64,000 nt of DNA from Welwitschia mirabilis (taxonomy: Eukaryota): NCBI GenBank assembly GCA_051453625.1, contig JBOZIK010000001.1:20492059-20556058 (forward strand), written 5' to 3'. The notes under the pieces are model-generated. The model searched no databases, was not told the origin of the DNA, and was given only the letters and a program-made list of their open reading frames with translations. A program made the position numbers and the translations under genes. Below are positions 7,808-57,554 of the stretch, piece by piece. The first letter of the stretch is position 1; every line of letters begins with the position of its first letter.

Positions 7808-8188
7808 GGGATTTTGTTTTCTTAGTGTATGTTTTTTGCCTCTTCAAATTCATAATTAATACAAAAAGATATATACCAAAATTCTTAGATACCTTTTACC
7901 CTAAATATTTTTTTGAATGCCCCTAACCAAATTATTACCTATAGAATATCTAACAAGTTAAATCTCCCTATTGACCAAAAGTCTCTTTTAACTCATAAAT
8001 ATCAAGGAAGAAGGGTCATGGCTAATCCCCTTCCTCTTGTTGGAATGGTACTTTAAATTTTCAAACCTTTAATCCTATTCCTAAGAGTGTAAAACATTTC
8101 CTTCTTGAACTATTCTATCCTACCAAGTTTATCATTCTAAAAGAATTTATGAAGGCTTTTAAATCTTAATTTAGTTCTTAATAACTAC

Positions 8189-9776
8189 TGTCACATCTAG
8201 ATTTTTAAGATCCAATATTCTAAATAATTCTTAATGTTATAAAGCCTCTAGCTAATTTAATTATTGCATGTATTTATGTTTTGACGTAAGTCATGTAATT
8301 TTATCTTTAAAATTTTGTGCTATAATTCCTCACATTTTGTACTAGTCATAATATTACCTTTGTTGAAAATTCTTAGTGATCCAATTATGATTCTATAGTT
8401 GTTAAATTATTGTAACTATCACACTTATATCTATTTAATCTAGAAAATATCTTTTATGTGATTTTTGTACATTACTTATTATTATTGCATGATAAGCATT
8501 GTTATTTACTGCTAAGATATTAATGCACCCAGTGGCCTGGTAAGGAATTGAATAAGGGTGTTACAAAATTCCTACCACTTTCAGCACCATAACCACCCTC
8601 CTTTATGATGAGATCTTTTCATATTCTTATGTCCTTTCATATTCCATGTCCTCAACTATAAATAAGATCCTCTTCTCCTTTCATTTGATATCTTGAGAAG
8701 CCTTTGCTATCAAACCTTGGAGCTTCAATAAGCCTTGAAACCTTAGAGCCTTAGAATTTTTAGAGTATTATGGTTTTATAATCTTCATTTTATTCTTGTC
8801 TTGTTCTTGATTTTTCATTTGTTTTCTTACATGGTTCTTATCTTGTGCATCTCAAATAACCTTTATTTTTGAATGATTTTAGTATTCATGTAATTCTTAT
8901 AAAGTTCTTGCATATTGATAAAGTTTGCATTCAGACTACATACACCCCATGTTAGTATTATCTTAGGTACTTTACATCATAATCATTCCCATCTTGTCTA
9001 AGTATTATGATGATTTGTTGATTTGACTTGTTTGGTTTTCGACCTTGGCTAATGATTTTTAGATAAAACTAAAACTGGCTAAGGTAACCAGTTATTTGAA
9101 CTTTAGAGAGTGATACTCTCTAAAGAAAGTCCTAAGGCCATGGGACCAAACTTCTAGGATGAATAGAAAAAATGCGACTAATTTACCATTTGTCCCTCCT
9201 GGATTATGTGCAACTGGATTACCAAATCTGTTATGGAGTAATAATTAGAAAAGTGATAAGCTCAAAATGGAGTCTTAATCATTGCTGATTTATTTTCATT
9301 ATCCCTTCTTTACTTGAGAATCCCTTTTCATTCCATACCTTATCATGGATCATACTAAGAACTATGTAGGTTACAGTTCTCACACCATGTTATTTATGTT
9401 TAGTAAGTGACTGAGTGGAACATAGTAAAAGCTAATTTACCTTACCAAGGAAGGCATTTTAAATGTTGATTTTCTAGCTTATGCATTAGAATTTATTAAA
9501 ATGGAGAGATTTTTCATCATTATAACTTATAATTTATTATATCTTGTAGTTGGTCTTTGACATATAATGATTCTTGAATTATCTTGGAAATAAGAAGTAT
9601 TTATTTTCTTGTGTATTTAAACATTATGTAACTTATTTATATCCTTTACCTATAAAAGTTACTTATAAATGTATTTTGTATGCATTTAGATTGATTTAAG
9701 AATTGTTGGCTTAAATATTTAATAAAAGTATTCATGAAAGTTTAAGCTTTAAGTTATGGAAAACTAGAATGTTACA
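8189..9776 (+). repeat. 5' LTR of Tekay-like element
   Basis: tgtcacatct...gaatgttaca, colinear with 14869-16576. Confidence 0.92.
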
Positions 9777-9779
9777 TTT

Positions 9780-9791
9780 TGATATCAGAGC
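9780..9791 (+). promoter_or_regulatory. PBS (initiator tRNA-Met type, degenerate TGGTATCAGAGC)
   Basis: tgatatcagagc, 3 nt after the LTR end. Confidence 0.85.
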
Positions 9792-10489
9792 ACCCTAGGT
9801 TACAAATTCACTAAGAGTAATCATTGTAAGGACATATACATTTCAACATTAAAGCCTAGGTTGTGGTTTCACTGGGTATAATTGTTGTAAATCTATTATA
9901 AGTCTTAGCATTAAGATTAAGAATTCATAATGTGTGCTTATTGAATTAGTAGAATTAGTAGAGTTACATAGGTAATAAGATCCTTCTCTTCTATTTTGGA
10001 TAGAAATTCAACATATTCTTGTCTTCCACATGGATGTCCATTAATTTGATATTTTAGTTTTATATCTAAAATTAAGTCCTCAAACGTATGAAGGAACTAA
10101 TAGCCGTGTTACAGATCTTGATATAGAGAGGCTAATAATAATTTGAAGGTTGATACATTTTACCATTGACTAGGATTTGCACAAGATAGTTTTCATTAAA
10201 AAACGTTAAAAAGATAAGAGTGAGACTCTAAAGTTTTTATGATTTAGCATTATTTGTCTTTGCAATAAGTGATTTTTATAAATAAGAAGTATAATGAGAA
10301 AGGCTAATATCAAAGGAGTTGCAAATAGCATGTGTGTGAATAACAAAAAAATCTTTGGAAGTTTTATAAAGTTTATACAATTTAAAAAATAACTATAAAA
10401 ATGAGAAACAAGGATCGCTTAGAGGAAACAAAGTCACAGCATGTAACTTACATCATTAGCATTACCAGTCAATGAGCTAAAATAAGGCT

Positions 10490-10970
10490 TCAACCTCTGC
10501 GACTTAATCCAGATGGCATTAAGCTCATCCTTACCATCATATAAAAACTGAACAGAATTTTCTACTGTCCTATTATAGTAAGCCATAACATCTTTCATTA
10601 CCTTAACTAATCTTCTCTTGATGTAACCTCTTTTTATAGTTTTAACTATTGTATCAATAAGCTCTTCTTGGCCTTCCATGGTATGGAAGAAGAACTCCTA
10701 CAAAGTAAGCTCTTTAGAATTTTTCAATAAATCCTCAGCTCTCTGAATCCTTATTATCTTAGATGAAATGGAAGATTCTTATCATGAAAACCATAGTGAA
10801 TTCATTTCCCTTTAATGTTTTATTAACTGATATAGGTTGTCATCTGAGATTCATTGATGAAACTTCTTTGGAATCTACTGTAATCATTGCCCTTAGATTA
10901 CACTTGTCCAACAAGCTTTTCTATGCAAAGTTCGTACATTATCTCGAGCCTTATTCAAAAACCTACTCAC
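10490..10970 (-). pseudogene. NRPB1: Captured fragment of RNA polymerase II largest subunit (funnel to bridge-helix region), decayed
   Basis: The minus strand reads VSRFLNKARDN..KSLLDKCNLRAMITVDSK..SFINESQMT..NIKGK*IHYGF..ES*GFIENS..LTL*EFFFHTMEGQEELIDTIVKTIKRGYIKRRLVKVMKDVMAYYNRTVENSVQFLYDGKDELNAIWIKSQRL. This is colinear with RPB1 [88 protein letters not shown]. Confidence 0.93.
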
Positions 10971-11129
10971 AAAGAAGCCCTAAAAGTAGATTTATAGTTA
11001 TAAGATCCATCTAAATATAATGTCCAACATTTTGCCATTTGTTTTTAATCGCTCAAGTTATTAAGAGAAATAATGGTAAAGATTGAAAGAGAGTGATTTT
11101 AATCAAGGAAAGAAAATAGGGCCATTTTT

Positions 11130-11700
11130 TATTTTAAGTAACAGTTCAAACAATTCAAGCCTTCCACCACATCCCATGTAAACTTCTGTTGCTAGCGATA
11201 ACCTTTACCAGCAAAGTCTTCTTAGGAATTCTAGCCTCCTTAACATAAAATTCTCTAATAGTTTTGAGCTCTATGATGAAATTCTTAAGAGTGGAATTAA
11301 ACCCAATGTCAGAACTTCTAGGACTATGATAAATGCCTATTGCAATAAAGAAAACATTGATAATGCTGCAAAACTATTTGAAGAATGGATATCATAGGTT
11401 ATTCACTCAATGTAGTGGCTTTTAACATTCTGATTAATGGTCCTTACAAAAAGATTTTTCTTAAGAAGGCATTGGAATTAAAGAAAACACAAAATGTGTG
11501 TATTAAGGTTTTTACCTAGTACTTTCACTTACATCATTATAATTAATGCTTTTCGTAAAGGTAAGAGATCTTAAGAATACAAGTTTACTAATTTAGAACA
11601 TGTCATCTAGAGAATTGACTTTTCATGTTGTTACCTTTAATTCTTAATTGAAGGCTTTATAGAAAAGGTGATATGGACAATGCTTTATAGATAGATGAGC
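11130..11700 (+). pseudogene. Captured pentatricopeptide-repeat (P-class PPR) gene fragment, about 4 repeats, decayed
   Basis: FELYDEILKSGIKPNVRTSRTMINAYCNKENIDNAAKLFEE / GYSLNVVAFNILINGPYKK..ALEL / STFTYIIIINAFRKGK / HVVTFNS-LIEGF..KGDMDNAL, with frameshifts and about 35-aa spacing. Confidence 0.88.
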
Positions 11701-14700
11701 AGGGCCCTTTTCTCTTGTGATAATCCTAGATATCCATCATGATGAGTTACTAGAAGATCCTTTTTAAAAAGATTCTATAATAATCCTTGCAATACCTCCT
11801 ATTGGTATTGACTTATTTCTTGTTCTGATAAGTTTCCCTATTTTATAAATGAGGTGTTGGAAATGTCAGTTATCATTTAATTTCCTTGATCTGTCTGCTC
11901 TTTATGTAGTAAACAATTCTTTAGCTGGGTAGTACAATTTTTAAGTATTTATTCATGCATGCGATTGATTCCCTTCGGTAGTTAGAAATAGCCATTTCCG
12001 CCTCCCCTCCATTCCCCACCCCCCTTTGGAACTATGCATATCTATGTAGCCTTCTTACTTGTTTATAATTTACCTTGCTTACATTGCTACTCTTCAGATG
12101 CTTGAATTATAGAAGGATTTTCATCTCTTTTGGCCTTTTTCTCTATTTATCCTCCCTCTTCTCTCCCGCTCTTGCTTTCTCAGTGCCTGTGCTTCCTACT
12201 TTTTCTGCTATTTAGAGATAGTAATCCAATGCACCAATAGCCAGATTTCTTTTTTCTTTCTTTTAGAAATCAAACTAGAGTGTCTTAAGCCTAAAGAATT
12301 GAGGGTCAATCCCAAAGTGCCACTATTATAAGTCCTAAAATATTCTACTCTGAGGAACTCTTTCCTCTCCAAATTGAAACAATCAATCCTTCTTTACATT
12401 TAGGGTAAATAAGTTTGAATGAAGAACATATCTTCGATTAGAAAATATGCTAGCACAAAGAGATTAGTAGATACCTAACTATAATTTAATGCATTAGGCA
12501 CAGAAGTTTGGCTACATTTGAAGCATGATTGAGAAGCATGTTTAGCTAAATGATACGTCATGCTTACTTAATAGTAGGTTAAATGACCTTCACAGATTAT
12601 GAAAATTATTAGCTCATCTAATACTAGTTTTGGCTAAGATCTAGCTATACAAAGGGTCAATGGTTTAAAATGGTACATCCATAATGACTTTAAAGATGGT
12701 TGAACTAGCTAATGGTAAACCTAGTCCCAGTTTTACTCCTATTGATCCTTTAAACTATTTAATATAAAGGTGTTATAAGTAGTGGTATATGTCTTTGGAA
12801 AAGGATGATTTTCATAATTTATAAAGAGAAGAATGTTGCATCTAAAATTTATAGATGTTGAAGGACATTTGAATTTAGAAGGAAAAGTTATTTAATTACT
12901 CATCTTTACAACAAGTTAGTTTCCAAGTAATACTTTATGCAAGGTGATGACTTGGCTTTTTAAAAAATAAAAGATTACCTTCTTGTTAATATGTGTGACT
13001 CATGTATTCTCAATGTTTTTTGTAATGTAAGTAGAAACTAACATTTAGATTTTATTTTTGGATGTTTCTTATCAATGAATATTTATTTACTAAATGTCAT
13101 TTCCACTAATAAGATATTACATTCCTATTTAATTTTCTTTCAATTTAAGAACAATTAGAACCTAGATGGTCAGACCAACAAAGGGTAAAATTTTAATTTA
13201 TTATGTCTTAGTTCATAGGTAAAAATAATTATCTTATTACATTTCATCTCCTAGAATAAGATTTAGCTATCTATGCTTCTAAATAATGCACTTCTAGAGC
13301 ACAAAGTAATGGGTCATTCAACCATTTCTAATCACTTAACATCTAAATAAATGAGTGTTGAAGATTCTTCTACTATTTTTTAATACCTTAGCATTTTAGA
13401 TCCTGTTTTATATATTAGGAAGTTTGAGCATTATGAACAGAAAGCTAATACCCTTACATAAAGGTCCAGAATCAATAGCAAACCTTTGTTGACTAATACA
13501 CAATAAAATTATGTCATTAAATGTATTTAAATGGGATGATAAGGGTTTAACATAAATCTAATATTTAATTAAATGATTAGGATTGCAATGTATCTTGATC
13601 ATTAAGAGAGTCTTTCAGCCAAGCTAAATAAATCATAGAATATATGATGCCTTTTTCCATGTTCTTGAAGGTTCCTAATTAGTATGCCTTAGATGATCAT
13701 GTAATGCTAATGTGTTTGACTTTGCATTTTCCTTTCACTTTATCTTACTTCACTTTAACATAGATTTGCATTTCAAGTATTCATTTGAAACTTCTATATC
13801 AAGTCCAACTTATCACCAATTAGAGCACTATTGATCTTTTTAAGAGAGGAAGGTTAATGATCACTTTAGCAATGTAGGATACACAAATCCTTGACTTCCT
13901 AATTATGTAGTTATGATTCAATCTAAAATGTTTTGATTCTTGAATCTAAATGATTACTCTCTGTCTAGTATTCATAACATAAAATGATTATAGTATATGA
14001 GTTTTTGAGCTTCTTGAAAGTATTATAGAATTAAAACTAGCATAGGAAGGATTCGACTCTTTTAAATTATAGCTCTCTATAATTTTGTACTAGCTACTTT
14101 TATAGGTTTACTTTCATTTCCTATATAATTTGTTTGGTTTGAAATTGCATGATGATCTAAGCAGCAAGAGGCTTAAGCACAACGCTCAAAATAAAAGAGT
14201 GTAGACTGAAAGAGAATCACAATTTATAAGCTTAGGTTTGAAGAATTTATACATAACATCTTAAAAGGATGAGCGTCATGATCTAGAGTAAGAGATTGTT
14301 GTGTTACAATATCTGATTTTTTCAATTTGGATTTAATAGGCCAAGCGTATTTTGATTTTGGTCGAAGCAAGAAGATTGTTAAGATATTTTGTCTTTCAAT
14401 CATCTAGAAGCATATTCAACTATGTTCTTAAAAATTCCTTGCAAAATCAATTATGTGGTCTTAATCCAACCTCCCATGAATATATGCTAGTTCATAACAT
14501 TTTCCATAATCAAGTAAGCTTTATAACCTTAGAAAATGGGAAAGATTAAAAGTTCATGTATAGAAAAATCACTTTCATAAACTTTGACGTTGATATACAT
14601 ATATAATACAACTTTTAGAGCACTTAATATGAAGTAAAGTGAAGGGTAGAGAAATAATAATTTCCAGAGGCTTCCTCATTCCAAATACAAGAGATGATTT

Positions 14701-14854
14701 GTGTTATCATGATGACTAATTAGCAAGCCTTTATATAAATTTTCCAACAATTTAATTTGCGTTGAAGGAAGATAATTTCAACTTGGTAAGTACAACGATT
14801 AGGGGAATATAAAATAGATGTATTGTAGCTTAAGTTTCAAGGATGAAACCTCTT

Positions 14855-14868
14855 AAGGAGTGGAGTAA
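14855..14868 (+). promoter_or_regulatory. Polypurine tract of Tekay-like element
   Basis: aaggagtggagtaa immediately before the 3' LTR. Confidence 0.8.
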
Positions 14869-16576
14869 TATCACGTCTATATTTTTAAGGTCCAAGATTC
14901 TAAATAATAATTAATGTTATAGAGCCTTTAGCTAGTTTAATTATTGCATGTATTTATTTTCTGATGTAAGNNNNNNNNNNNNNNNNNNNNNNNNNNNNNN
15001 NNNNNNNNNNNNNNNNNNNNNNNNNNNNNNNNNNNNNNNNNNNNNNNNNNNNNNNNNNNNNNNNNNNNNNTCTAAATAATAATTAATGTTATAGAGCCTT
15101 TAGCTAGTTTAATTATTGCATGTATTTATTTTCTGATGTAAGTGTGTAATTTTATCTTAAAAATTTTGTGCTATAATTCCTCACATCTTGTACTAGTCAT
15201 CATATTACCTTTGTTAAAAATTATTAGTGAACTAATTATGATTCTTTTGTAGTTAAATTATTGTAACTATCGCACTTATATCTATTTAATTTGAAAAATA
15301 TCTTTTATGTGATTTTTGGAAATTACTTGTTATCGTTGCATTATGAGTGCTAAGATATTAACTTTTACCATCATAACCACCCTCCTTTGTGATGGATCCT
15401 TTTCATGTCCTTATGTCCTTTAACATTCCACATTCTCAACTATAAATAAGACACTCTTTTCTTTTCATTTGGTATCTTGAGAATCCTTCTCTACTAAATG
15501 TTGGAGCTTGGATAAGCCTTGGAACCTTGATGCCTTGGAATTTTCATAGTCTTTGAATCTTCATTTGTATTCAGGTATGATTTTATAGTATTCATTTCAT
15601 TCTTGTATGGTTCTTGGCTTTTCATTTATTTTCTTACATGACCCTTATCTTGTGCATCTTGAATAATATTTATTTTTGGATGACTTTTGTATTCATGTAA
15701 TTCTTGTAAAGTTGTTCTTACATATCAATGAAGTTTGCATTTATACTACATACATTATCTTAGGTACATTACATTGTAACCCTTTCCATCTTGTCTAAGT
15801 ATTGTGATGATCTGTCGACTTGACTTGTTTGGTTTTTGACCTTGATTGATGACTTTTAAATAAAAAAACTAAAACTGACTAGGATAATCAATTTTTTAGA
15901 CTTCAGGAAGTGATACTCTCTGAAGGGAGTCTTGAGGCCATGGGACCGAACTTCCAAGATGAATAGGAAAAATGTGACTAATTTACCATTTATCCCTCCT
16001 AGATTGTATGCAACTAGATTACCAAAATCTATTATGGAGTAATAGTAAAAGAAGATAAACTCAAAATGGAGTCTTGGCCATTTTCATTTATTATTGTTAT
16101 TCCTTCTTCACTTGATAACCCCTTTTCATTTCATACCTTATCATGGACCATACTAGGAACTGTTAAGATTAAAGTTCTCATACCATGCTATTTGTGTTTA
16201 ATAGGTAGTTGAGTGGAGCATAGAAAAAGCTAATTTATCTTGCCAAGAAGGGCATTTGAAATGTTGATTTTCTAGCTTGTACATGAGAATTTGTTAAAAT
16301 GGAGAGATTTGTTCATCATTGTAACCTGTAATTTATTATATCTTATAGTTGACCTTTGATATATGATGATTTTTAAGTTATCTTGGAAATAATAAGTATT
16401 TATTTCCTTATGTATTTTCACATTATGTGAGTTATTTATCTCTTTTACCTATAAAAGTTACTTATAAATGTATTTTTGTATGCATCTAGATTTATTTAAT
16501 AATTGTTGGCTTAAATATTTAATAAAAGCATTTGTAAAAGTTTAAGCTTTTAGTTGTGAAAAACTAGGATGTTACA
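14869..16576 (+). repeat. 3' LTR of Tekay-like element (contains a 100-N gap with duplicated flanks)
   Basis: tatcacgtct...ggatgttaca, colinear with 8189-9776. Confidence 0.92.
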
Positions 16577-18444
16577 ACTACCTATGAACATGTTGTGTGT
16601 AGATGTTTCAGTCTTTTATTGAAAGTAGAAGCTGGTTATTAGTTTTTTTAATCTTCTAAGTGGTTGTATTTCCTTTTATAGCAAATTTAAGTCTAAGTTT
16701 TTTCATAGATATGATGGCTAATATAATTCACAAGATTTGTTAACTTTCCTATTAACTTTGAGGCATAACCCTCAAGAACATGTAAAAATTCACAATTATA
16801 GATTTCTTAGACTATTCAATCTGATAAACAACATCCTAGAATCTACTGACTGAGCTCTTTAAATTATCTACTTAAATTCATTAGTACTATAGCTTTTAGT
16901 TTTAGTGAGAAATGATAATTTAGTAATTCCCTTAATAACTACAATGAAATTTCTTCAAGGGATTATACTTAGATATATCCATTTAAGGTTTTATTAATCT
17001 TTTTCATAGTACTATAATAATTTATCTTGAATACCAAACCAAACATTAAGTATTTACCTTTAACATCATCTATTCCCTCTTCATCGTCTGATACAAAAAT
17101 ACTTCCATTGCTTAAAAATATATCAAACCAACTATAAAAATTAAATCTTAATAAAAAGTTTTATTCTATTAAGAAGATTGGAGAAAAATCTATTGAAAAG
17201 GCAGTTATCATGAATACTAAAAGTTGTCTTTTATAAGAATATTCAACAAAATAAGATTTTAAAGAAGAAAAATGTTGTGCTTATTTTGATGATATTTGAT
17301 TCATATTATGAATTAGATAGTGATGTATTAGAAAGAGAAAATTCTAACTCATTTATTTCCTATTCTTATCAACTTAGTTATGGTTTCTTTGAAATTTAAA
17401 GTGAATTAGACTCAGATTCTAATAATTAAAGAAATGTTACTAAACCCATCATTAGCTAAGTGTAATTCTAACAACTATGAACTTAGATCAAAGAAAGAAG
17501 AACCAGTTACATACCCCATCCCATCTAATATTATTTCATCATCAAGCATTATTAAGAAGCCTTTTGAACCTAAAAAAAATACTACATCAATGAAGAACAA
17601 AAAAATAAGTAAGTGTTAGTTTAATGCCTCAAAATAATATTAAAAATAACTCAAGAAAAGAAGAGGGTAAACAAATAACACCCTATTATATTTGAAAGTA
17701 TATCTTAAAGCCTAAGGCGTATTATGTACTAGATGGAGGTTCTAAATATGACATCAGAGAATACCTAAAAAAAGTTAGGGCTAATATTAGCTTTTATTAA
17801 TTGCTTAGTATGATAAGATAAAAGAAAAAATTACTCAATGCTCTGAATTACTTAGAATGTAAGTTACACATGAATCAAATAGAAAATCATACTATTACTA
17901 TTACAACTTCTAAATCCACTTTAGATAATCAGAAGCCAAACAAGATGAATCTCTTCTTATTGACATTATTAATGGGGAAGATTTTCCTTCATAATTGTAT
18001 TCTAGATGCTAAAGCTTTAGCAACTCTTATGCTCTTTTCAGTTTTTTAGAAAATAGGACTAGCCCTAGAAAACTCCCCATATAATGTAAATTAGATCAAT
18101 AAATCTAAAGTTAAAATTATAAGCCAGATTAATAATGTTGTCTTGGAAATGGTAAAAGATCCTAGAATTTCTAGTATAATGAACATTTAAGTCATTGATT
18201 TCCCAGTTGTGTATAGTCTAATTTTAAGTAGAAATTAAATGAAAACTATTAATGGATATTTAGCCATAGATCTTTCTAATATGTGGATTTATTTTAACCA
18301 AATACTAAATGAAATATTAATACATAATAAGCCTTATATAAAATACTTAGTTGTTAACTCTGTTAATTCATTTAATGGCATCTGTACTATCACTGAAGAA
18401 TTATATGAATTTGGACTAATTCCATTTTATCCCTTTCTGAGGCA

Positions 18445-24739: not shown

Positions 24740-27700
24740 AAAAAAAAGTATCAAAATTTAGGGGTTTAGTAAAAATATCTACCAATTACTGGTCTGAAGT
24801 TGTAAAATTCATAGAGATGTATCCTTTTTCAACTTGGTCCTATAGGAAATGATGTCTTAGCTCAATATGCTTCATTCTTGAGTGTTGAACCAAATTTTTC
24901 CATATATTAATAGCACTTGTATTATCATAAAAAATAGGAAATTGCTCAAAATTAATACTAAAATCTTTTAACATTTCTTTTATCCATAAAAGGTGAGTGC
25001 GACAACTACCTGTTGTAATATATTTAGCTTCTACAGTAGAGAGAGAAATAGAGTTTTATTTCTTGCTTGCCCATCCCATTAAACATGAATCTAGTAGAAA
25101 GTAATTTTCACTTGTTCTTTTTCTATCATCTTTGCATTTAGCCCAATCCACATCACTAAAACTTACAAGTTCGAAAGATGTCTTGGTGACATACCATAAG
25201 CCATAATCACATGTGCCCTTTACATATCTAATTATTCTTTTTACTGCTTTAAGATGTGATTCTTTTGGTTGGGATTGATATCTTACACATACTCCAATAA
25301 TAAACATGATATTTGATCTACTTGTGATCAAATATAATAAACTACCAATCATACTTCTATAAATTTTTTGATCTACTGATTTGTCATTTTCATCCAAACT
25401 TACTTTACATGATGTAGATATAGGAGTGTCAATTGTTTTTGCATTTTCTAATCAAAGTGTTTGATTAAATTCTTTCATATTTGAATTGAGAAATAAATAT
25501 TTCATTTTTAGATTGCTTGATCTGAAGTTTAATAAACATCTTAATTTCACTGAGCATACTCATTTCAAATTGTTTTTTCATGAAATTTGCAAATTATTTT
25601 GATAGCTTTTTATTTGAGGCACTAAATATAATATCATCTACATATGTCTGTATAATAATGAAATTATTTTTTAGATTCTTTACAAATAAGGTTTTTTCTA
25701 CAGATCCTCGAATATATCCATTTTCATTTAAAAATGTATCTAGCTTCTCATAACAAGCTCTTGATTCTTGTTTTAGTCCATACAAGGCTTTCTTAAGTCT
25801 ATATACATGATCAATTTTATGAGGATCAATAAAACCTTGTGGTTGTTCTACATAGACTTCTTCAATTAACGTACCATTTAGAAAGGCATTTTTTACATCC
25901 ATTTGATATATTTTAAAATTCTTAAAATCTACAAAGGACAAAAACATTCTAATGCTGTCCACCCTTGCAACGGGAGCAAAAGTGTCTCCTACATTAATGC
26001 CTTCTATTTGATTGTATCCTTCAGCTACTAATCTTGCCTTGTTTTTAATTACATTATTTTCTTAATCACATTTGTTTTTAAAAATTCATTTAGTTCCAAT
26101 GACATTCTTATCTAATGATCTTTCTACTAACCTCCAAACATCATTTCTTTTAAGTTGTTATAGCTCATCTTATATTATCAACATCCATTTCTCATGAATT
26201 TCTGCTTCTTCAAATTTCTCTGGTTCTATCTTTAATACATAACAAATGTGAGTATACAAATTTTTCATGGAATGTATTATCTTTATTTTTGAGTTAACTT
26301 ATCTAATAATCGATTCTAAAGGATGATCTTTAAGAATTTGGGCTTTTTCGGTATGCCTTCTTTTATTTGAACTTCATTTCTTTTGGTAGAGTCTTCATTG
26401 GTTGTGGAAATACTTGTAGTCATGATTTTCTCCTAATTTGTGTAGTTTGGTCTTATGTCAATTTCATCAATTTGCATGTTTATTGACTTATCTACTGTTA
26501 AGCTTTTTTCATTAAAAGCATGATAGGCTCTATTTCTAGTTGAGTAACCCAAGAGGATAGCTTCATCTGCCTTCAACTCAAATTTGCTTAAATGTTCTCT
26601 ATCTTTTAGCATATAGCATTTACTTCTAAAGATTTTAAAGTATGACACATTTAGTTTTCTTCCTTTCCATAATTCATATGATGTTTTATCAGTACCAGGT
26701 CTAAGATAAACTCTATTAATAATATAGCATGTTCTGCTAGCTACCTTAGCCCAAAAGGATTTAGGAACTTCCTTATCATTTGGCATAGTTCGTGACATTT
26801 CTTGAAGGACTCCATTCTTTATTTCAGGTATACCATTTTGTTGTGGTATTTTTAGGGCTAAAAACTGATGATCAATTCCATTTTCAATGCAATATTTCTC
26901 AAAAAAATGATTTTCAAATTCACCACCATGATCACTTNNNNNNNNNNNNNNNNNNNNNNNNNNNNNNNNNNNNNNNNNNNNNNNNNNNNNNNNNNNNNNN
27001 NNNNNNNNNNNNNNNNNNNNNNNNNNNNNNNNNNNNNCAATATTTCTCAAAAAAATGATTTTCAAATTCACCACCATGATCACTTATTATTTTCTTTATG
27101 GTATACCCCTTTTGTTTTAAATCTTGTTGTAAATTTTAACCCAAAATTTATAAGCTTTATATTTGTTTGATAAAAAGGCTATCCAAGTATATCTATAAAA
27201 ATCATCAACCATGGTGAGAAAATAATGTTTTCCTCTTAGACTTTGAGTTTGAGTAGGTCCTACTAGATCCATATGAATAAGCTATAATGGCATAGATGTG
27301 GATGTTTGAAATTTTCTTTTATGGGAGGTCCTAATTTTTTTCCCCTTTTGGCATGCATTACATAAGCCTTTTTTTTCTACATTTATCTTAGAGATTCCTT
27401 TTACAATGTTTTTATGAATAATCATTTTTAACTGATTATAATTAACATGACCTAATAGTTTATGCCACAACTCTTCTTNNNNNNNNNNTGATCTATGCTA
27501 TAAACACTATATATTCTACCTGCTCTAAGAATTACATCATTCGATTTTCCATGTAAATTTTCACATTTTGATTTATCAAAAAATACTTTATGACCTTTAT
27601 TACAAATTTGGCTAATGCTTAATAAATTATGCTTAAACCATTTATATATAAAACTTCATTAAGTCTAGAAAGGTTACCTCCACCAATGCTTCCAATCCCT

Positions 27701-44658: not shown

Positions 44659-45259
44659 AGGCTATCAAAGAAGTACAAAGGTTATCATCATTCAGATAAG
44701 TATTCCGGTTATTTGTTTATTCGGCTTTGTAGTTTATTAGAAATTTAGGGATTTCTATAGCATTTTTTATGTGCTATAGTTTTGACTTTTTGAATTTTTA
44801 TTTTTTATTAAAAAAAGTGTGGTCATCCCCTGTGTTTTTCCCACGATAGATAAGATAACAGTCATTTTTTAGTTTTTGTTTTATTTTGTATTTTTTATTT
44901 TTTCTCCAATAAATTTGCCTCTGTCGTCCCTTATGACATCCAGACGACTGCATTTCAATTCTATTTTTGTTTTTCTATTTTCTAATAACATTGTCTCTTC
45001 TATCATCTAAATGATAGATAAGATGACAGTCTGTGATCTAATTTCTATTGTTTGTTGTTTGCAGGATGCTGTGCTATGGTAAATATGAAGAAGAAATATC
45101 TCAGAGAAAAGAAGCTAATAGAAGAGGACCTCAAAGAAGGACTAGCAATCTTAGAAAAAGAGATGGAAGAACAATCTCTAGGTGCACTCAATCCTCCTTC
45201 CAATTTTTTTTTTTTTTAAATTTGATTTCCTTAATGAAAAACCTATAGAAGAAGAAGAT

Positions 45260-47330
45260 CAACCTACAATGTCGAGTGCTTCCCAAAAACAAAAACAAGT
45301 CATAGGGTCTTCTACCCCTAATTTCAACCTCATCCTTAGAGAACTATTAGCCAACAAAAATAGAGAAATTCAAAATTCATTTAACCTACCTTTGGGAAAT
45401 GATGTAGAGCTTAAGAATATACATGCTTATCCAACTTTTAGTGGAGAAGAGGATGAGAATTCCATTCAACATATTGAAGATATTGAATAACTTATTCTCA
45501 CCTTAGAAAATGGGAAGAAAAGAATAAAATAGAACATATATGGTAATCTTTCCCATAACTTTAAAAGGTAGGGTAAAATTATGACTAAAAACATTACCCT
45601 ACAAGAGCCTCAAAACATGGGATCAAGTCTGGAAAACCTTTATAAAAAGATTTATGAGTGAAAAAACTATAAGAAAAAGAAAGAGGAAGGTAATAAATTT
45701 TCAACAAAATCCAAATGAAGACTATGCCTCCATATATGAGCATTTCTTTATCACAATCCACTCTAATCCAGTAGATGCTTTTTCAAAAGTAGAACAACTA
45801 AACTACTTTTATAGTGGATTGACTCCCCACACAAAACAACTTGTAGATTTTTCTTATGGAGGAAATCTTTTGAACCTTACCTTAGATGAAGCCTGGATAA
45901 AATTAGAAGAAATTGTGGAGGTTAGTAAAACTTGATTAACACTAAAAGAAAATTAAATGATAGGCCAAATTATCAAAGGGTTAAAACAAGTAAAGCAAAA
46001 AGAGGTAGAAGTCAACCCTACAGATCCTATGAGGGAATTTACAAAAACCTTAGAGAAGTATACAAAAATAATTTTGGATGCCAAAAATGCAACTGAAAGA
46101 AATGTTATGCAAACATGTGATTTATGTGAGGAAAACTATCATATCACCAAAAATTATCCTCTTCTACCAACTTATAAAGAGAAAATTATAGAGGAAGTTT
46201 TAGCTTTTAATCAACCATATCAAAACTTCCAAAATCAAAATCAAGCACAACCTAGGTTAAACCATCATTTCCAAAATAATCATTAACTTTTTAGAAACCG
46301 AAACACATATTACCAACCAAGTTCATCTAACTTTTAACATCCAAATAATCCTCTTGCAAATTCTATAGATGAAATAAGAAAAACACAAGAAGAAACAAAT
46401 GCCAAAATAGATAACTTGGTTAGTGTCCTTCAACAAACTTTATTGGAAAACCAAAGATCCTAAGGAAATTTAGCTATATAACCTTTACCCAACCCAAATA
46501 AATTAAGAAAATATTATAAGGTTGTAACAAGAAGTGGTTAAGAAATAAACCCTCTTCCATGTAAACCTTTCACCTCCCATAATAATGAAGAAAAATAGCA
46601 ATATGACATTAATATTTTAGATGATTACCACTTCCCTTCTCTTGGCAAGAAGAAAATGAAAAATCCAAATACCCCTTAGCTTGATAGACTTAATAATAAT
46701 TTAACTTTAAATGACCATTTAAAAGCCTTAATAAAAAATGTAAGCATAAGTCTTCCTTTTTAGAAAGTTTTACAAGAAAATTCGGGGTATGTAAAACTAT
46801 GGAAAGACTTAATTAGAAGAAAACAAAAAAGATTCATTCTTAATAAGGTCTTTCTTACCCAATCCCTTACAAATTTAGTATTACAAAAGTCACCAAAATT
46901 TAAAGATTCAGGAGTAGCAATGGTGGATATTATAGTAGAGGGAAATAAAAAGATAAGAAAAGCATTAATTTACATTGGAGCGAGCATTAACTTTATGTCA
47001 CTTTACATTTACAAGAGGCTTGGTTTAAAAGATAGAATAGAGCCTACTATAGTTGTCTTAAAACTAGCAGATATATCAATTAAAAAACCATTAGGCATAA
47101 TTAAAGATTTGGAAATCCAAATAGAAGAGGCTTACTACCCCCTTGATGTGATTATCATAAAAGTTGAGCATAACAGAGGATATTCTTTACTTCTAAGTAG
47201 AGTCTTTTGTGCAATAGCCCATTACATCATTGATATAAGAAAAGGAATAATGAAATGTTATTTTAGAAATAGAACTTTGACGATTAGAGTCTTTGATGCA
47301 GCTAAGAAAGATTTGGGTGATGATGATATG
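45260..47330 (+). pseudogene. Athila gag and aspartic protease remnants
   Basis: YPTFSGEEDENSIQHI; INFQQNPNE..YFYSGLTPHTKQLVDFSYGGNLL; CDLCEENYHITKNYP; ALIYIGASINFMSL..LKLADISIKKPLGIIKD. Confidence 0.9.
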
Positions 47331-50300
47331 AACATTAAAGATAATGTCAAACACACTTTATTTTTGCAACATTACCCACTTAAAAAAAGAGAAATCAAAC
47401 CAAGTGAGCATGTGCTTTATGAAGATCAACCTAAGAATAAAGAAGAAAAGAAACCTTGTGAGTATAAGGAATTCCAACTTATCAAGAAAAATCAAAAGGA
47501 AGATTGTCCATTTCATAAGTCAAAAAGTAAAAATCATAAAATGAATTTGAAAAAGAAAAATGTTTTCAAAGGTAATCTTCTTTGTAATGTTCCTCTTACA
47601 TTTCATGAAAATCTTTCACCCAAGTTACCTTTTCTCTTCCCTTTGACTTTCAAAATCTGTACTTTGATATGGAATCATAAAGTACTCTCCATTACTCCTC
47701 TCTTCATCCAATTGATTTTACATGAAAATAATTGTACATATCCTATGTTTTATTAATTGGTCAATTTCTGGTTTGGACCTTACTTCTTTAAAAGACTTAA
47801 GACCACCACAGATCCTTGATTTTCCTTTCTTTATTTTCATTAAAGTATGCTTTATGTTGAGGATTTAAATAAAAGTTTGCTTGCTTTGTTGTTTTCTTTT
47901 TAGTTTTTTATTTTTAGAATCTTTGTTTTTATTTTTTATTTTCTATTTTTGCTAACATAATTGGTCATCTTCTATGTTGTCCTCATGACAAGATGAATGA
48001 TAATCACCTTTGATAGATTTTTAGTTGTTCTGTTAATTTTCTATGTTTTGTTTATTTTTCCTATCTATGTCATCCTCTATGTCATCTAGAAGATGGCAAG
48101 ATGATTGTTAATAAAATGTTAATTTTTTTTGTTATTTTCAAAAAATAAATTTTTATTACTCTATTGAAATTTATAACTTAACTACCTAAGATTTATAGGA
48201 ATTAAATTGAAAAAATTAGAATTTCATAAGAAAATTGTCTAAATTTTCTCTTAGCTTTTTCTTTTAAAAGATTATTGTGGTATTACTTGATCATCTTTCA
48301 AACCTAACTTATGCATTTATTTTCATAACTAGTTTTTTGACTTGGGAATTTCAATGATAAGATTGGGTTCATCCAATCTTAGGACATTTACACATCAATG
48401 AACTTCATGAAAGGAAGATGCTTTATTTTTTATTCTTTCCTTAATGGTGAAAGGGTCTTAGATTGTTTAAGAGTATTCTTTTCTATCTTAATATTATAAC
48501 TTTTACCTTTGTATTTAGAGTGTTTGGTTATGTGAAATTTTGTTTATTTATTAAAAAAAAAGAATGAATAAATACCATGATGTTTCATGTTTCTATCTCA
48601 AAAGCATGGTCGTCATGATGTCCTACTGCTAGTATATTGAGACAAATATTTTTGAGAAGAGCCTTTGATAGTGTAATATGATACCTGTGGAAACTCTACT
48701 AGGAGGTTAGTTGGCCATGTTTCGCAGGTCCTCACTTCTCTGATAGTGGTTGCACTTTCCTCATCATGGATAATAAAGCTGTATTTAAACTTTGAGGCTA
48801 CTCGATTAGGGGTAATCCTAGTGTNNNNNNNNNNNNNNNNNNNNNNNNNNNNNNNNNNNNNNNNNNNNNNNNNNNNNNNNNNNNNNNNNNNNNNNNNNNN
48901 NNNNNNNNNNNNNNNNNNNNNNNNNNNNNNNNNNNNNNNNNNNNNNNNNNNNNNNNNNNNNNNNNNNNNNNNNNNNNNNNNNNNNNNNNNNNNNNNNNNN
49001 NNNNNNNNNNNNNNNNNNNNNNNNNNNNNNNNNNNNNNNNNNNNNNNNNNNNNNNNNNNNNNNNNNNNNNNNNNNNNNNNNNNNNNNNNNNNNNNNNNNN
49101 NNNNNNNNNNNNNNNNNNNNNNNNNNNNNNNNNNNNNNCACGATTAGAGTCTTTGATGCAGCTAAGAAGGATTTGGGTAATGATGAAATAAACACTAAAA
49201 ATAATGTCAAACTCGCTTTATTTTTGCAACATCACCCACTTGAAAAAAGAGAGATGAAATCAAGTGAGCATGTGCTTTGTGATGATTTACTTGAAAATAA
49301 AGAAGAAAAAAAACACTGTGAAGTCCAACCTTTTAAGAAAAATCATAAGGGAGATTGTCCATTTCATATGACAAAAAGTAAAAATCATAAAATGAATTTG
49401 AAAAAAAAAATATTTTCAATGGGCATAAAGGTAATTTTCTTTATAATATTCCTCTTGCAAATCTTTCATCCAAATTTCCTTTTCTCTCCCCTTTGCCTTC
49501 CAAAATCTGTACTTTGATATGGCATCATAAAGTACTCTCCATTACTCCTCTCTTTATCTAATCAATTTTACTTAGAAATAATTGCACATTACTTATGTTT
49601 TATTAATTAGTAAATTTTTGGTTTCGACCATTCTTCTTTAAAAATTCTAAAACCATAGAAAATCCTTAATTTTCTTTTCTTTCTTTTTAATAAAGTGTCC
49701 TTTAGATTTAGGATTTAGTTTGCTTGCTTTGATTATTTTCTTTTCAGTTTTTTGTTTTCTGTTTTCAAAGTCTCTGTTTTATTTCTGTTTACAAGTTTGC
49801 TTTCTCTGTTTTTGCTTAAATAATATGTTGTCTTCTATGTCGTCCACATGAGTAGGTGGATGACAATCACTCTTTCTATCTTTTTTGTTTTTTTTCCTTT
49901 TTTTTTATGTTCTATTTTCTTTTCTGTGTATGTTATCCATGTCATCTGGATAACTGTCAGGACAACCATTAATAAACTATTAATTATTTTTGAGAAAATA
50001 CATTTTTATGGCTCTATTAAGATTTCCAACTTGACTACTTCAGAATTGCAGAAAGTGAATGGATAAATATTAGAATTTCATGAGCAAACCATCTAAATTT
50101 TCTTTTAGCCATTTTCCTTTGAAATATTATTATGGCATTACCTGACCATCTTTCAAACTTGATTTATGTATTTACTTCCATGACTAGTCTTTTTGACTTG
50201 GGCATTTCAGTGATAAGATTGGATTTACCCAATCTTAGGACATTTAAAAGTCCATGAACTTTAATTGAAGGAAGATTCCTTTTTTTTAAAATGCTTTTCT

Positions 50301-56599: not shown

Positions 56600-57321
56600 A
56601 TCATCCTTAAAGCTTAGAATCTTAACAATGCCATAAGAAAATACTTCTAAGATTGCAATGAAATATTCCACTTAGACATAATTTTTTCAAAGAATTTTTG
56701 TAGTTATAAATCATTTAGTAAAATGAAGGTAGTAGATATAAAACTTCTCCTAAATATATATTTATCATTATACATTTTCATTCTTTATGTTTTGATTCAG
56801 TAGTTTTCATAAGCTTCATTCCCTTTTTTAAGATTATTTAGGTCGATACTCCAAGATTCTAAAACTTTATTAATATTTTAATTAAGCTATTTAATGGCCC
56901 AAAAATTTTCATATTCAATTTTGACATGAACGTAATAAGATTCTCTAAAAACAATTCCATAAGGTAGCATTTCAATGGAGGTTTTATAGGTGGTTTAGTA
57001 GTTATAGAGAGCATTACTAAGTGGAAAAACTGATAAGTTCTACTTGACTTCATCACTTACTATAGGATTCTTTTCAACTCACCATTTGTAACCTTCACTT
57101 GATTATTAGTTTGTGAATTGTAAGAAGCTGCAACTTTGTACATGATTTCACATTTGTTTAAAAGACTAATAATTGCTTTATTATAAAGATGATTTTATTT
57201 GGCACTAATAATAACTCAAAGTAAGATTTAGATATATTTATATATATATGTATATATATATATATAGTTTATGGGGATTACATCACTAAGTAATGTAAAG
57301 TTATTCCAGCTAGAACAGGTG

Positions 57322-57376
<55 letters not shown>

Positions 57377-57488
57377 NNNNNNNNNNNNNNNNNNNNNNNN
57401 NNNNNNNNNNNNNNNNNNNNNNNNNNNNNNNNNNNNNNNNNNNNNNNNNNNNNNNNNNNNNNNNNNNNNNNNNNNNAACAGGTGATAT

Positions 57489-57554
<66 letters not shown>

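What the first reader, a model, noticed from the sequence alone, without database searches (positions are those of the whole stretch)
10490..10970. Antisense copy of the Pol II bridge-helix region inside a retroelement
Seen: about 160 contiguous codons matching RPB1 from VLNKARD to AVWIESQ, with stops, frameshifts, a short deletion after TVENS and no intron-sized interruption. It is antisense to the element's transcription direction. Inference: element transcripts or siRNAs could have targeted NRPB1, an essential gene, when the copy was young. The present divergence makes current targeting doubtful.
Basis: partly seen in the sequence, partly recalled or inferred. Interest (0 to 1): 0.7.

Follow-up and report, generated by a model that had tools for sequence, protein, structure and literature searches.

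The report
Decayed RPB1 fragment inside LTR retrotransposon
A badly decayed 480-base piece of the plant gene for the largest subunit of RNA polymerase II lies backwards inside an old LTR retrotransposon that has no genes of its own, which is an ordinary case of a transposon carrying a scrap of a host gene.

Summary
Window 10491-10970 (minus strand) aligns to residues 157-322 of a plant RPB1 (VNQVLNKARD...WIESQKL). 89 of 156 codon pairs are identical, with 5 stops, 5 frameshifts and a 4-residue deletion after TVENS (Pfam Rpb1_5, E 4e-16).

It lies antisense inside a true LTR retrotransposon on the plus strand. The element has LTRs at 8189-9776 and 14869-16576, TG..CA ends, a tRNA-Met-type PBS, a PPT and a 5-bp target duplication (ACTAC). 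Its internal region has no gag or pol. The only Pfam matches there are the RPB1 piece and a sense PPR-gene piece.

The source is Pol II of plant type, not Pol III, I, IV or V, by score. AU tests could not formally exclude the alternatives.

The parental interval is one exon in 19 of 19 plant-like RPB1 loci, so the missing introns say nothing about how it was captured.

The fragment has decayed more than the LTRs (25% at conserved sites, mostly G>A and C>T). Related copies exist in the genome, so capture predates this insertion.

No RNA-seq read covers it, and it has no 21-mer with fewer than 2 mismatches to any RPB1 compared.

Verdict: a dead passenger fragment, and a new member of a known kind.

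The parts
8184..8188 (.). Target-site duplication, left copy (ACTAC)
   Evidence: The same 5 bases directly flank both ends of the element.
8189..9776 (+). 5' LTR (1588 bp), starts TG and ends CA
   Evidence: Direct repeat of 14869-16576. 1288 of 1504 aligned positions are identical, K2P 0.163. Summed contig depth is in the thousands in two DNA runs, so this is a high-copy family.
9780..9791 (+). Primer binding site TGATATCAGAGC
   Evidence: It lies 3 nt after the 5' LTR. 11 of 12 bases match TGGTATCAGAGC, given as the tRNA-Met PBS of plant copia elements in PMC3852365 (passage read).
9777..14868 (+). Internal region without gag or pol (non-autonomous)
   Evidence: Pfam on 33 ORFs and on all six frames read through with X at stops gives only Rpb1_5 (minus strand) and PPR (plus strand). 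Positions 10024-14035 have low depth (5-55) against thousands for the LTRs and for 14272-14865.
10491..10970 (-). Decayed fragment of plant RPB1 (residues about 157-322: end of domain 4, bridge helix, start of domain 5)
10437..10490 (-). Possible, marginal continuation of the RPB1 homology (..NANDVSYML against NWNPTSYML)
   Evidence: tblastn with P0017. DP score 45 against a shuffled maximum of 45.
11182..11516 (+). Decayed pentatricopeptide-repeat (PPR) gene fragment, sense to the element; probably runs on to about 11720
   Evidence: Pfam PPR_2 at 2.1e-11 and PPR_1 at 7.1e-9. RNA reads of an expressed PPR gene lie partly on 11661-11701, and their loose end encodes a PPR-like motif.
14855..14868 (+). 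Polypurine tract AAGGAGTGGAGTAA
   Evidence: It lies directly upstream of the 3' LTR.
14869..16576 (+). 3' LTR (starts TA, mutated from TG; ends CA), holding a 100-N assembly gap at 14971-15070
16577..16581 (.). Target-site duplication, right copy (ACTAC)

Best explanation
The stretch is a dead passenger. It is a roughly 480-bp piece of one exon of the host's Pol II largest-subunit gene (NRPB1/RPB1). It sits in reverse orientation in the internal region of an old, non-autonomous LTR retrotransposon, next to a PPR-gene piece.

Shown: the element has two 1.6-kb LTRs, a PBS, a PPT and a 5-bp target duplication, and no gag or pol. Only its LTRs and the ends of its internal region belong to a high-copy family. 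The central 4 kb or so is low-copy.

Inferred: an ancestor of this copy lost its coding region and acquired host sequence. It was then copied a few times by the proteins of autonomous relatives. This copy inserted roughly 5-12 million years ago. The capture is at least about twice as old. The template was more likely genomic DNA or an unspliced, antisense read-through transcript than a spliced mRNA (about 60% against 20%). Since then the fragment has decayed neutrally with the G:C to A:T bias typical of methylated, silenced repeats. Today it encodes nothing, is not detectably transcribed, and is too diverged to guide small RNAs to NRPB1.
For: Fragment identity and decay:
- Pfam Rpb1_5 at E 4.1e-16.
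- 89 of 156 codon pairs identical, 5 stops, 5 frameshifts.

Pol II and plant type:
- PDB phmmer gives Pol II 59 bits, Pol III 49.6 and 41.2, and Pol I 40.3 and 33.6. Pol IV and Pol V subunit 1 are absent from the best 60, so below 16.4 bits, although both are in the library.
- Frameshift-aware scores are 293-353 for 17 plant-like rows, 221-310 for 12 other Pol II rows, 207-227 for 9 Pol III-like rows and 176-184 for 3 archaeal rows.
- The ML tree nests the fragment in an 18-row clade (SH-aLRT 92) with named Hibiscus, Oldenlandia and Calypogeia RPB1.
- 18 of the 19 best nucleotide hits among 80 loci are the plant-like loci.

The element:
- LTR pair, TG..CA ends, PBS 11 of 12, PPT and ACTAC duplication.
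- No TE protein domain in six read-through frames. Pfam does find RVT_2 and gag in two other elements of the same window.

Family structure:
- Depth is in the thousands on the LTRs and on 14272-14970, but 9-55 on 10024-13563. Exact contigs have depth about 5.
- Several contigs differ from the window across the fragment. At 10820, for example, 3 contigs carry C out of a total depth of 33.8.

Age:
- LTR K2P is 0.163.
- The fragment differs at 79 of 317 positions that are conserved in at least 11 of 12 RPB1 loci. 50 of the 79 are G>A or C>T. GC>AT changes are 55 of 140 sites and AT>GC 13 of 177.

Template:
- The intron sits exactly at ..VNQ|VLNK.. in 16 of 19 plant-like loci. None of the 19 has an intron in residues 160-372.
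- Homology starts there, with ..GTAG directly before the exon-like GTTTT(T)GAATAAG.
- No upstream exon is detectable.
- Transduced genes are usually sense to gag-pol (PMC7264820, passage).

No present activity:
- 0 reads on 10496-11203 in two RNA-seq runs, each about a quarter read.
- Best 21-mer has 2-5 mismatches.
Against: - The host's own NRPB1 was not available. All comparisons use RPB1 from other plants and from unnamed metagenome contigs judged plant-like by tree position and identity.
- AU tests on the 42-row set do not reject placing the fragment with the Pol III-like rows (delta lnL 12.0, p 0.267) or with non-plant Pol II (delta lnL 8.1, p 0.289).
- The fragment has a very long branch (1.08-1.83).
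- The argument for an unspliced template rests on a few bases. The 9 nt upstream match the spliced VNQ codons about as well (4-5 of 9) as an intron end. The intron is only 75-105 nt in the loci seen, so a breakpoint inside it is itself unlikely.
- Summed contig depth is not a copy number.
- The RNA runs are polyA/cDNA libraries, not small-RNA libraries, and human-like reads are filtered.
- The dating uses a recalled substitution rate. It also compares sites of different base composition.
Confidence: 0.85

Rival explanations
1. Bs1-like transduction of a spliced mRNA. Reverse transcriptase switched between element RNA and a co-packaged NRPB1 mRNA, so the fragment is a processed, RNA-derived copy.
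For: LTR retrotransposons are known to transduce host gene pieces (Bs1, cited in PMC7264820; 425 maize elements with gene fragments, PMC2774510). The fragment has no intron. The three codons before the parental intron site (VSR against VNQ) match 4-5 of 9 nt.
Against: The parental interval has no intron in 19 of 19 loci, so lack of introns is uninformative. The orientation is antisense, whereas transduced genes are usually sense (PMC7264820). No homology to the upstream exon appears beyond those 9 nt: score 41 against shuffles of 34.4 +/- 5.4.
Confidence: 0.2
2. The RPB1 and PPR pieces arrived together inside a DNA transposon that collects gene fragments (Pack-MULE, Helitron or CACTA). That transposon nested into the retrotransposon and has since decayed.
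For: Two unrelated gene pieces in opposite orientations lie about 200 bp apart. This is typical of Pack-MULEs and Helitrons: 50-68% of those carry 2 or more fragments against 15% of capturing Sireviruses (10.1101/777037).
Against: No terminal inverted repeats bound the low-copy region. No gag-pol remnants flank it, as a simple nested insertion would leave. Bs1 and some Sireviruses also carry several fragments.
Confidence: 0.12
3. The antisense fragment is a working regulator. Element read-through or antisense transcripts give small RNAs that act on NRPB1 (epigenetic cross-talk).
For: Cross-talk siRNAs between captured fragments and donor genes are documented in maize (10.1101/777037). At the time of capture the fragment was fully complementary to the mRNA (inference).
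Against: The best 21-mer has 2-5 mismatches and the longest exact match is 9-14 nt against 11 RPB1 loci. Nucleotide identity is 61-67%. No RNA-seq read lies on it, and no NRPB1 mRNA read lies on it at 80% likeness or better. Decay at conserved sites looks neutral.
Confidence: 0.03
4. The fragment derives from another multisubunit polymerase gene (NRPC1, NRPA1, NRPD1 or NRPE1) or from a non-plant source.
For: AU tests do not reject grouping with Pol III-like rows (p 0.267) or non-plant Pol II rows (p 0.289). FHTM in the fragment resembles the Pol III motif, but that resemblance is recalled and was not tested.
Against: All score-based rankings favour plant Pol II. Nucleotide-level similarity to plant-like RPB1 loci reaches E 1.5e-50. 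The homology boundary coincides with the plant RPB1 intron site. Pol IV and Pol V subunits score below 16.4 bits.
Confidence: 0.03

Closest known systems
Bs1 of maize (LTR retrotransposon that transduced pieces of host genes)
   Same: An LTR element without normal coding capacity whose internal region carries pieces of more than one host gene (Bs1 as described in PMC7264820, passage read).
   Different: Here the RPB1 piece is antisense. No chimeric open frame survives. Spliced-mRNA origin is not shown. That Bs1's pieces are sense and intron-free is recalled, not read here.
Gene-fragment capture by Sirevirus and other LTR retrotransposons in maize, rice and sorghum
   Same: The same phenomenon. 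204 maize Sireviruses (3%) hold exon fragments, and 15% of those hold 2 or more (10.1101/777037). 425 intact maize LTR elements hold gene fragments, 221 of them in unclassified families (PMC2774510).
   Different: Baucom et al. found no element with fragments of two genes, whereas this one has two. The donor here is an essential single-function housekeeping gene. The species is not maize.
Non-autonomous LTR retrotransposons (LARD-type derivatives of autonomous families)
   Same: Intact LTRs, PBS, PPT and target duplication, with an internal region of about 5 kb lacking gag-pol. Only the LTRs and internal ends are shared with a high-copy family.
   Different: The internal region is not a conserved non-coding LARD core. 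It is a low-copy mosaic that includes host gene scraps. The autonomous partner was not identified.
Pack-MULE and Helitron transduplication with siRNA cross-talk (the 'epigenetic conflict' model)
   Same: A host exon fragment inside a silenced TE.
   Different: The carrier is a class I element. The fragment is far too diverged for cross-talk now.
Conserved antisense additional ORFs of plant LTR retrotransposons (Grande gene23, RIRE2, Retand)
   Same: Antisense sequence inside the internal region (PMC7264820).
   Different: Those are open frames between pol and the 3' LTR with no host homologue. This is a broken host-gene fragment near the 5' end of an element without pol.

Membership tests
LTR retrotransposon | Two long direct terminal repeats | tested here: met
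   8189-9776 and 14869-16576; 1288 of 1504 aligned positions identical.
LTR retrotransposon | LTR ends TG...CA and a short target-site duplication | tested here: met
   The 5' LTR runs TG..CA. The 3' LTR runs TA..CA, with one transition. ACTAC lies on both flanks.
LTR retrotransposon | PBS after the 5' LTR and PPT before the 3' LTR | tested here: met
   TGATATCAGAGC at 9780-9791, 11 of 12 to the tRNA-Met PBS quoted in PMC3852365. Purine run at 14855-14868.
Autonomous LTR retrotransposon (Copia or Gypsy) | gag, protease, integrase, RT and RNase H coding region | tested here: not met
   No such Pfam family in 33 ORFs or in six read-through frames. Positive controls elsewhere in the window were found.
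RPB1 (Pol II largest subunit) derived sequence | Significant match to the Rpb1 domain 5 / bridge-helix region | tested here: met
   PF04998 at E 4.1e-16. Yeast Rpb1 residues 812-884 at E 4.7e-15.
RPB1 (Pol II largest subunit) derived sequence | Closer to Pol II than to the Pol I, III, IV or V largest subunits | tested here: met
   By score. The AU test does not formally reject a Pol III placement (p 0.267).
RPB1 (Pol II largest subunit) derived sequence | Groups with land-plant RPB1 | tested here: inconclusive
   The ML trees place it in the plant clade (SH-aLRT 92 and 94). The AU test does not reject non-plant Pol II (p 0.289). Nucleotide hits and the shared intron site favour plants.
Functional RPB1 gene or paralogue | Open reading frame covering the catalytic subunit | tested here: not met
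   Only residues about 157-322 are present, with 5 stops and 5 frameshifts.
Processed (spliced-RNA-derived) gene copy | Loss of introns that the parent has in the copied interval | tested here: inconclusive
   The parent interval is intron-free in 19 of 19 plant-like loci. The nearest intron lies exactly at the fragment's 5' boundary.
TE-borne source of cross-talk siRNAs against the donor gene | Stretches of 21-24 nt identical or nearly identical to the donor | tested here: not met
   Best 21-mer has 2-5 mismatches and the longest exact match is 9-14 nt against 11 surrogate RPB1 loci. The host's own gene was not available.
TE-borne source of cross-talk siRNAs against the donor gene | Small RNAs mapping to both fragment and donor | not testable with these tools
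   No small-RNA run was offered. Logan contigs cannot show 21-24-nt RNAs.

The most novel reading that the evidence does not exclude
Younger sister copies of this element elsewhere in the genome may still carry an antisense NRPB1 exon close enough to the gene to feed 21-24-nt RNAs against Pol II's catalytic subunit. The retrotransposon family would then be locked in an 'epigenetic conflict' with an essential gene. Silencing the element would risk silencing Pol II, which could shield the family from full silencing. The copy in this window would be the fossil of that episode.
Probability: 0.04. Interest if true: 0.6.

Novelty: new member of a known kind. Interest (0 to 1): 0.2.

Why it matters
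It matters little by itself. The finding is a well-documented anatomy of one more host-gene scrap carried by a non-autonomous LTR retrotransposon, a phenomenon counted in the hundreds per genome in maize, rice and sorghum.

Three modest points stand out:
1. The donor is an essential housekeeping gene and the piece is antisense. This is the configuration in which the epigenetic-conflict model predicts the strongest cost.
2. The element carries pieces of two genes.
3. The case shows that 'no introns' must be checked against the donor's exon map before RNA-mediated capture is inferred.

For annotation, the stretch should be masked as TE-borne pseudogene sequence and not called as a polymerase gene.

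Tried and rejected
- Whole-genome search of the window's own assembly: none is held.
It was repeated with ORFs and with X at stops.
- The search for homologous proteins, 'longer': 5 hits, none named. 'Near': no candidate. This gives no evidence of annotated protein copies of the fragment.
- Earlier findings of this scan: none for this genome.
- tRNA scan of the window to check the PBS against a local tRNA-Met: 0 genes.
- Search for terminal inverted repeats around the low-copy core: only short, scattered pairs at chance level. A 19-nt direct repeat at 10446 and 11527 was judged chance.
- My first idea that GTAAGT at 10450-10455 (minus strand) marks a retained splice donor was dropped. It lies inside the marginal ..DVSYML homology.
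- Upstream-exon search: not above shuffles.
- AU test on the 118-row tree: not finished after 570 s. On 42 rows it rejected neither alternative.
- RNA: no RNA holder was listed by the run index. Two RNA-seq runs were laid, and no small-RNA or bisulfite data could be laid.
- Literature: no paper holds NRPB1 + retrotransposon + 'gene fragment'. A search with RPB1 + pseudogene + transposable element + captured listed 8 of 11 papers, none relevant by title.
- Structure prediction, complex prediction and the protein atlas were not used. They cannot bear on a broken 160-codon fragment of a known family.

Full report
**What is there.** On the minus strand of window 10491-10970 lies a broken copy of part of the gene for the largest subunit of RNA polymerase II.
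- A frameshift-aware alignment to Hibiscus RPB1 (P0017, named) covers residues 157-322 (VNQVLNKARD ... AVWIESQKL).
- 89 of 156 codon pairs are identical and 117 are positive. There are 5 stops, 5 frameshifts, 10 deleted residues (including the four after TVENS) and 2 extra codons.
- The longest open piece (10437-10697, 87 aa) hits Pfam RNA_pol_Rpb1_5 at E 4.1e-16 and yeast Rpb1 812-884, the bridge-helix region, at E 4.7e-15.
- tblastn with two full-length RPB1 proteins finds no other RPB1-like stretch in the 64 kb.
A continuation to 10437 is marginal.

**Which polymerase, which source.**
- PDB sequence search of the 87-aa piece ranks Pol II first (59 bits), then Pol III (49.6 and 41.2), Pol I (40.3 to 33.6) and archaeal subunits.
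- The plant Pol IV and Pol V largest subunits are in the library. They are absent from the 34 hits at E <= 0.001 and from the best 60 at E <= 10, so they score under 16.4 bits.
- Of 1869 hits in the 1.84-billion-protein representative library, the four with the highest summed tblastn score on the fragment are all plant RPB1 entries: Oldenlandia, Tanacetum, Calypogeia and Hibiscus.
- Frameshift-aware scores separate the groups: 17 plant-like rows score 293-353, 12 other Pol II rows 221-310, 9 Pol III-like rows 207-227, and 3 archaeal rows 176-184. The Pol III-like rows are a well-supported clade that includes 3 long proteins lacking Rpb1_6 and Rpb1_7.
- A 118-row ML tree nests the fragment in an 18-row clade (SH-aLRT 92) with the named land-plant sequences and the metagenome loci L001-L019.
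- Against this, the fragment's branch is very long. AU tests on a 42-row set reject neither a Pol III placement (p 0.267) nor a non-plant Pol II placement (p 0.289). The 118-row AU test did not finish.
- I therefore take 'plant Pol II' as well supported by score, by nucleotide similarity (E 1.5e-50, 65% over 494 nt to L012/L013) and by gene structure. It is not supported by the formal topology test.

**The carrier.** The fragment lies inside a genuine LTR retrotransposon on the plus strand.
- The 1.6-kb direct repeats are at 8189-9776 and 14869-16576, with 1288 of 1504 aligned positions identical and K2P 0.163.
- They begin TG (TA in the 3' copy) and end CA, and are flanked on both sides by ACTAC.
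- Three bases after the 5' LTR comes TGATATCAGAGC. This matches 11 of 12 bases of the tRNA-Met primer binding site quoted for plant copia elements (PMC3852365, passage read).
- A purine run directly precedes the 3' LTR.
- The 5.1-kb internal region has no gag, protease, integrase, RT or RNase H, in 33 ORFs and in six frames read through with X at stops. Pfam readily finds RVT_2 and gag in two other elements of the window.
- The only other recognisable content is a decayed PPR-gene piece on the plus strand (11182-11516, probably to about 11720).

**Family structure and expression.** Contigs of two DNA runs and raw reads of two RNA-seq runs were laid at 80% likeness or better.
- The LTRs and the last 600 bp or so of the internal region (14272-14970) collect summed depths in the thousands.
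- 9788-10023 collects about 300.
- The core 10024-13563 collects only 5-55, where contigs identical to the window have depth about 5.
- Across the RPB1 piece several contigs differ from the window. At 10820, for example, 3 contigs carry C out of a total depth of 33.8. At 10825, 4 contigs carry G.
- Listed pieces elsewhere in the core are 82-85% alike. Depth is not a copy number, but this points to a handful of diverged sister copies of the core within a very abundant LTR family.
- The 128 and 48 RNA reads laid are almost all under 90% alike and lie on the LTR-family parts. None lies on 10496-11203.
- No NRPB1 mRNA read matched the fragment at 80%. The tool warns that human-like reads of conserved genes may be filtered.

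**The intron question.** I fetched 80 RPB1 loci from metagenome contigs with a 232-residue stretch of P0017 and examined the 19 most plant-like.
- In 16 of 19 (L003-L016, L018, L019) an intron of roughly 75-105 nt sits exactly between ...ENRVNQ and VLNKARD.... The other three (L001, L002, L017) have none there.
- In 0 of 19 is there any intron between residue 160 and at least 372.
- The fragment is thus the 5' part of a single parental exon, so its lack of introns is expected whatever the capture route.
- Homology begins within about 9 nt of that exon start. The window reads ...CTTCTTTGTGAGTAG directly before GTTTTTGAATAAGGC, against ...CTTTCCTTGTAG before GTTTTGAATAAAGC in L012. No upstream exon is detectable.
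- This looks like a retained acceptor. However, the same 9 nt also match the spliced VNQ codons at 4-5 of 9, so the point is only a hint.
- Transduced genes are usually sense to gag-pol (PMC7264820). Together with the antisense orientation, this makes me favour a genomic or unspliced template at about 60%. One example would be antisense read-through from an element inserted in or near the gene, or DNA-level repair. The route is not settled.

**Age and decay.**
- At 317 alignment columns where at least 11 of 12 plant-like loci agree, the fragment differs at 79 (25%).
- 50 of the 79 differences are G>A or C>T. GC>AT changes hit 55 of 140 G/C sites against AT>GC at 13 of 177 A/T sites.
- GC content is 33% against 43.5% in the loci. 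This is the pattern expected of a methylated, unconstrained repeat (established knowledge, not tested here).
- Each LTR has diverged about 0.08 from the ancestor since insertion (half of 0.163). Allowing for the richer G/C content of the conserved sites, the fragment has still changed at least about twice as much. Capture therefore predates this insertion, consistent with the sister copies.
- With a recalled rate of 0.7-1.3e-8 per site per year, the insertion is about 6-12 million years old. This is an inference.

**Function.** I find none at present.
- The fragment is 61-67% identical at nucleotide level to RPB1 genes that are 74-98% identical among themselves.
- Its longest exact match to any of 11 loci is 9-14 nt, and its best 21-mer has 2-5 mismatches.
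It may have applied when the copy was young. That cannot be tested with the data available here.

**Comparison and novelty.**
- Gene-fragment capture by LTR retrotransposons is well known. Examples are Bs1, 204 capturing Sireviruses in maize, 425 intact maize elements of which 221 are in unclassified families, and many in rice and sorghum.
- This element passes every structural test for an LTR retrotransposon and fails the coding test, so it is a non-autonomous member.
- The slightly unusual points are the antisense orientation, the two donors in one element, and the essential donor gene.
- No paper in the library combines NRPB1, retrotransposon and 'gene fragment'.
- I file it as a new member of a known kind, of low interest.

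Noticed in passing
window 11182-11720 (+): Decayed PPR-gene fragment, sense to the element, about 200 bp from the RPB1 piece. RNA reads of an expressed PPR gene lie partly on 11661-11701.
   Followed up: partly
window 14899-15142: A 100-N gap (14971-15070) is flanked by two 72-bp stretches that are 100% identical (14899-14970 = 15071-15142). It looks like an assembly or scaffolding artefact inside the 3' LTR, not a real duplication.
   Followed up: partly
window 25059-27083 (-): Copia-type retrotransposon remnants: RVT_2 at E 9e-44 (25597-26061) and a retroviral integrase SH3-like domain (26436-26936), interrupted by N gaps.
   Followed up: partly
window 45182-47756 (+) and 49139-49517 (+): Ty3-like gag (45585-45932, Retrotrans_gag at E 1.3e-5) followed by a 330-aa frame with a weak aspartyl-protease match. 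A second, similar frame begins right after the N gap at 49139, suggesting two related copies or a duplicated stretch.
   Followed up: no
proteins P0007, P0017, P0024, P0131: The best plant hits in the representative library are themselves truncated or odd RPB1 annotations. One is a 360-aa liverwort protein and one a 400-aa Tanacetum protein with an unrelated N-terminus. Hibiscus 'isoform 4' lacks internal blocks, and the Oldenlandia entry lacks VLNKARDDAG. RPB1-derived partial copies may be common in plant genomes.
   Followed up: no
window 7900-8135: The sequence just left of the insertion site has summed contig depth of about 200 against about 5 for single-copy pieces, so the element appears to be nested in another repeat.
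   Followed up: no
window 57228-57654: Long AT-rich microsatellite-like tract around an N gap; its translations read as YIYIYI runs.
   Followed up: no
runs X1-X4 (organism A) and X5-X8 (organism B): Runs under two different coded organism labels both hold contigs identical or nearly identical to the element's low-copy core. The insertion is therefore shared by two labels, which may be the same or very close taxa.
   Followed up: no
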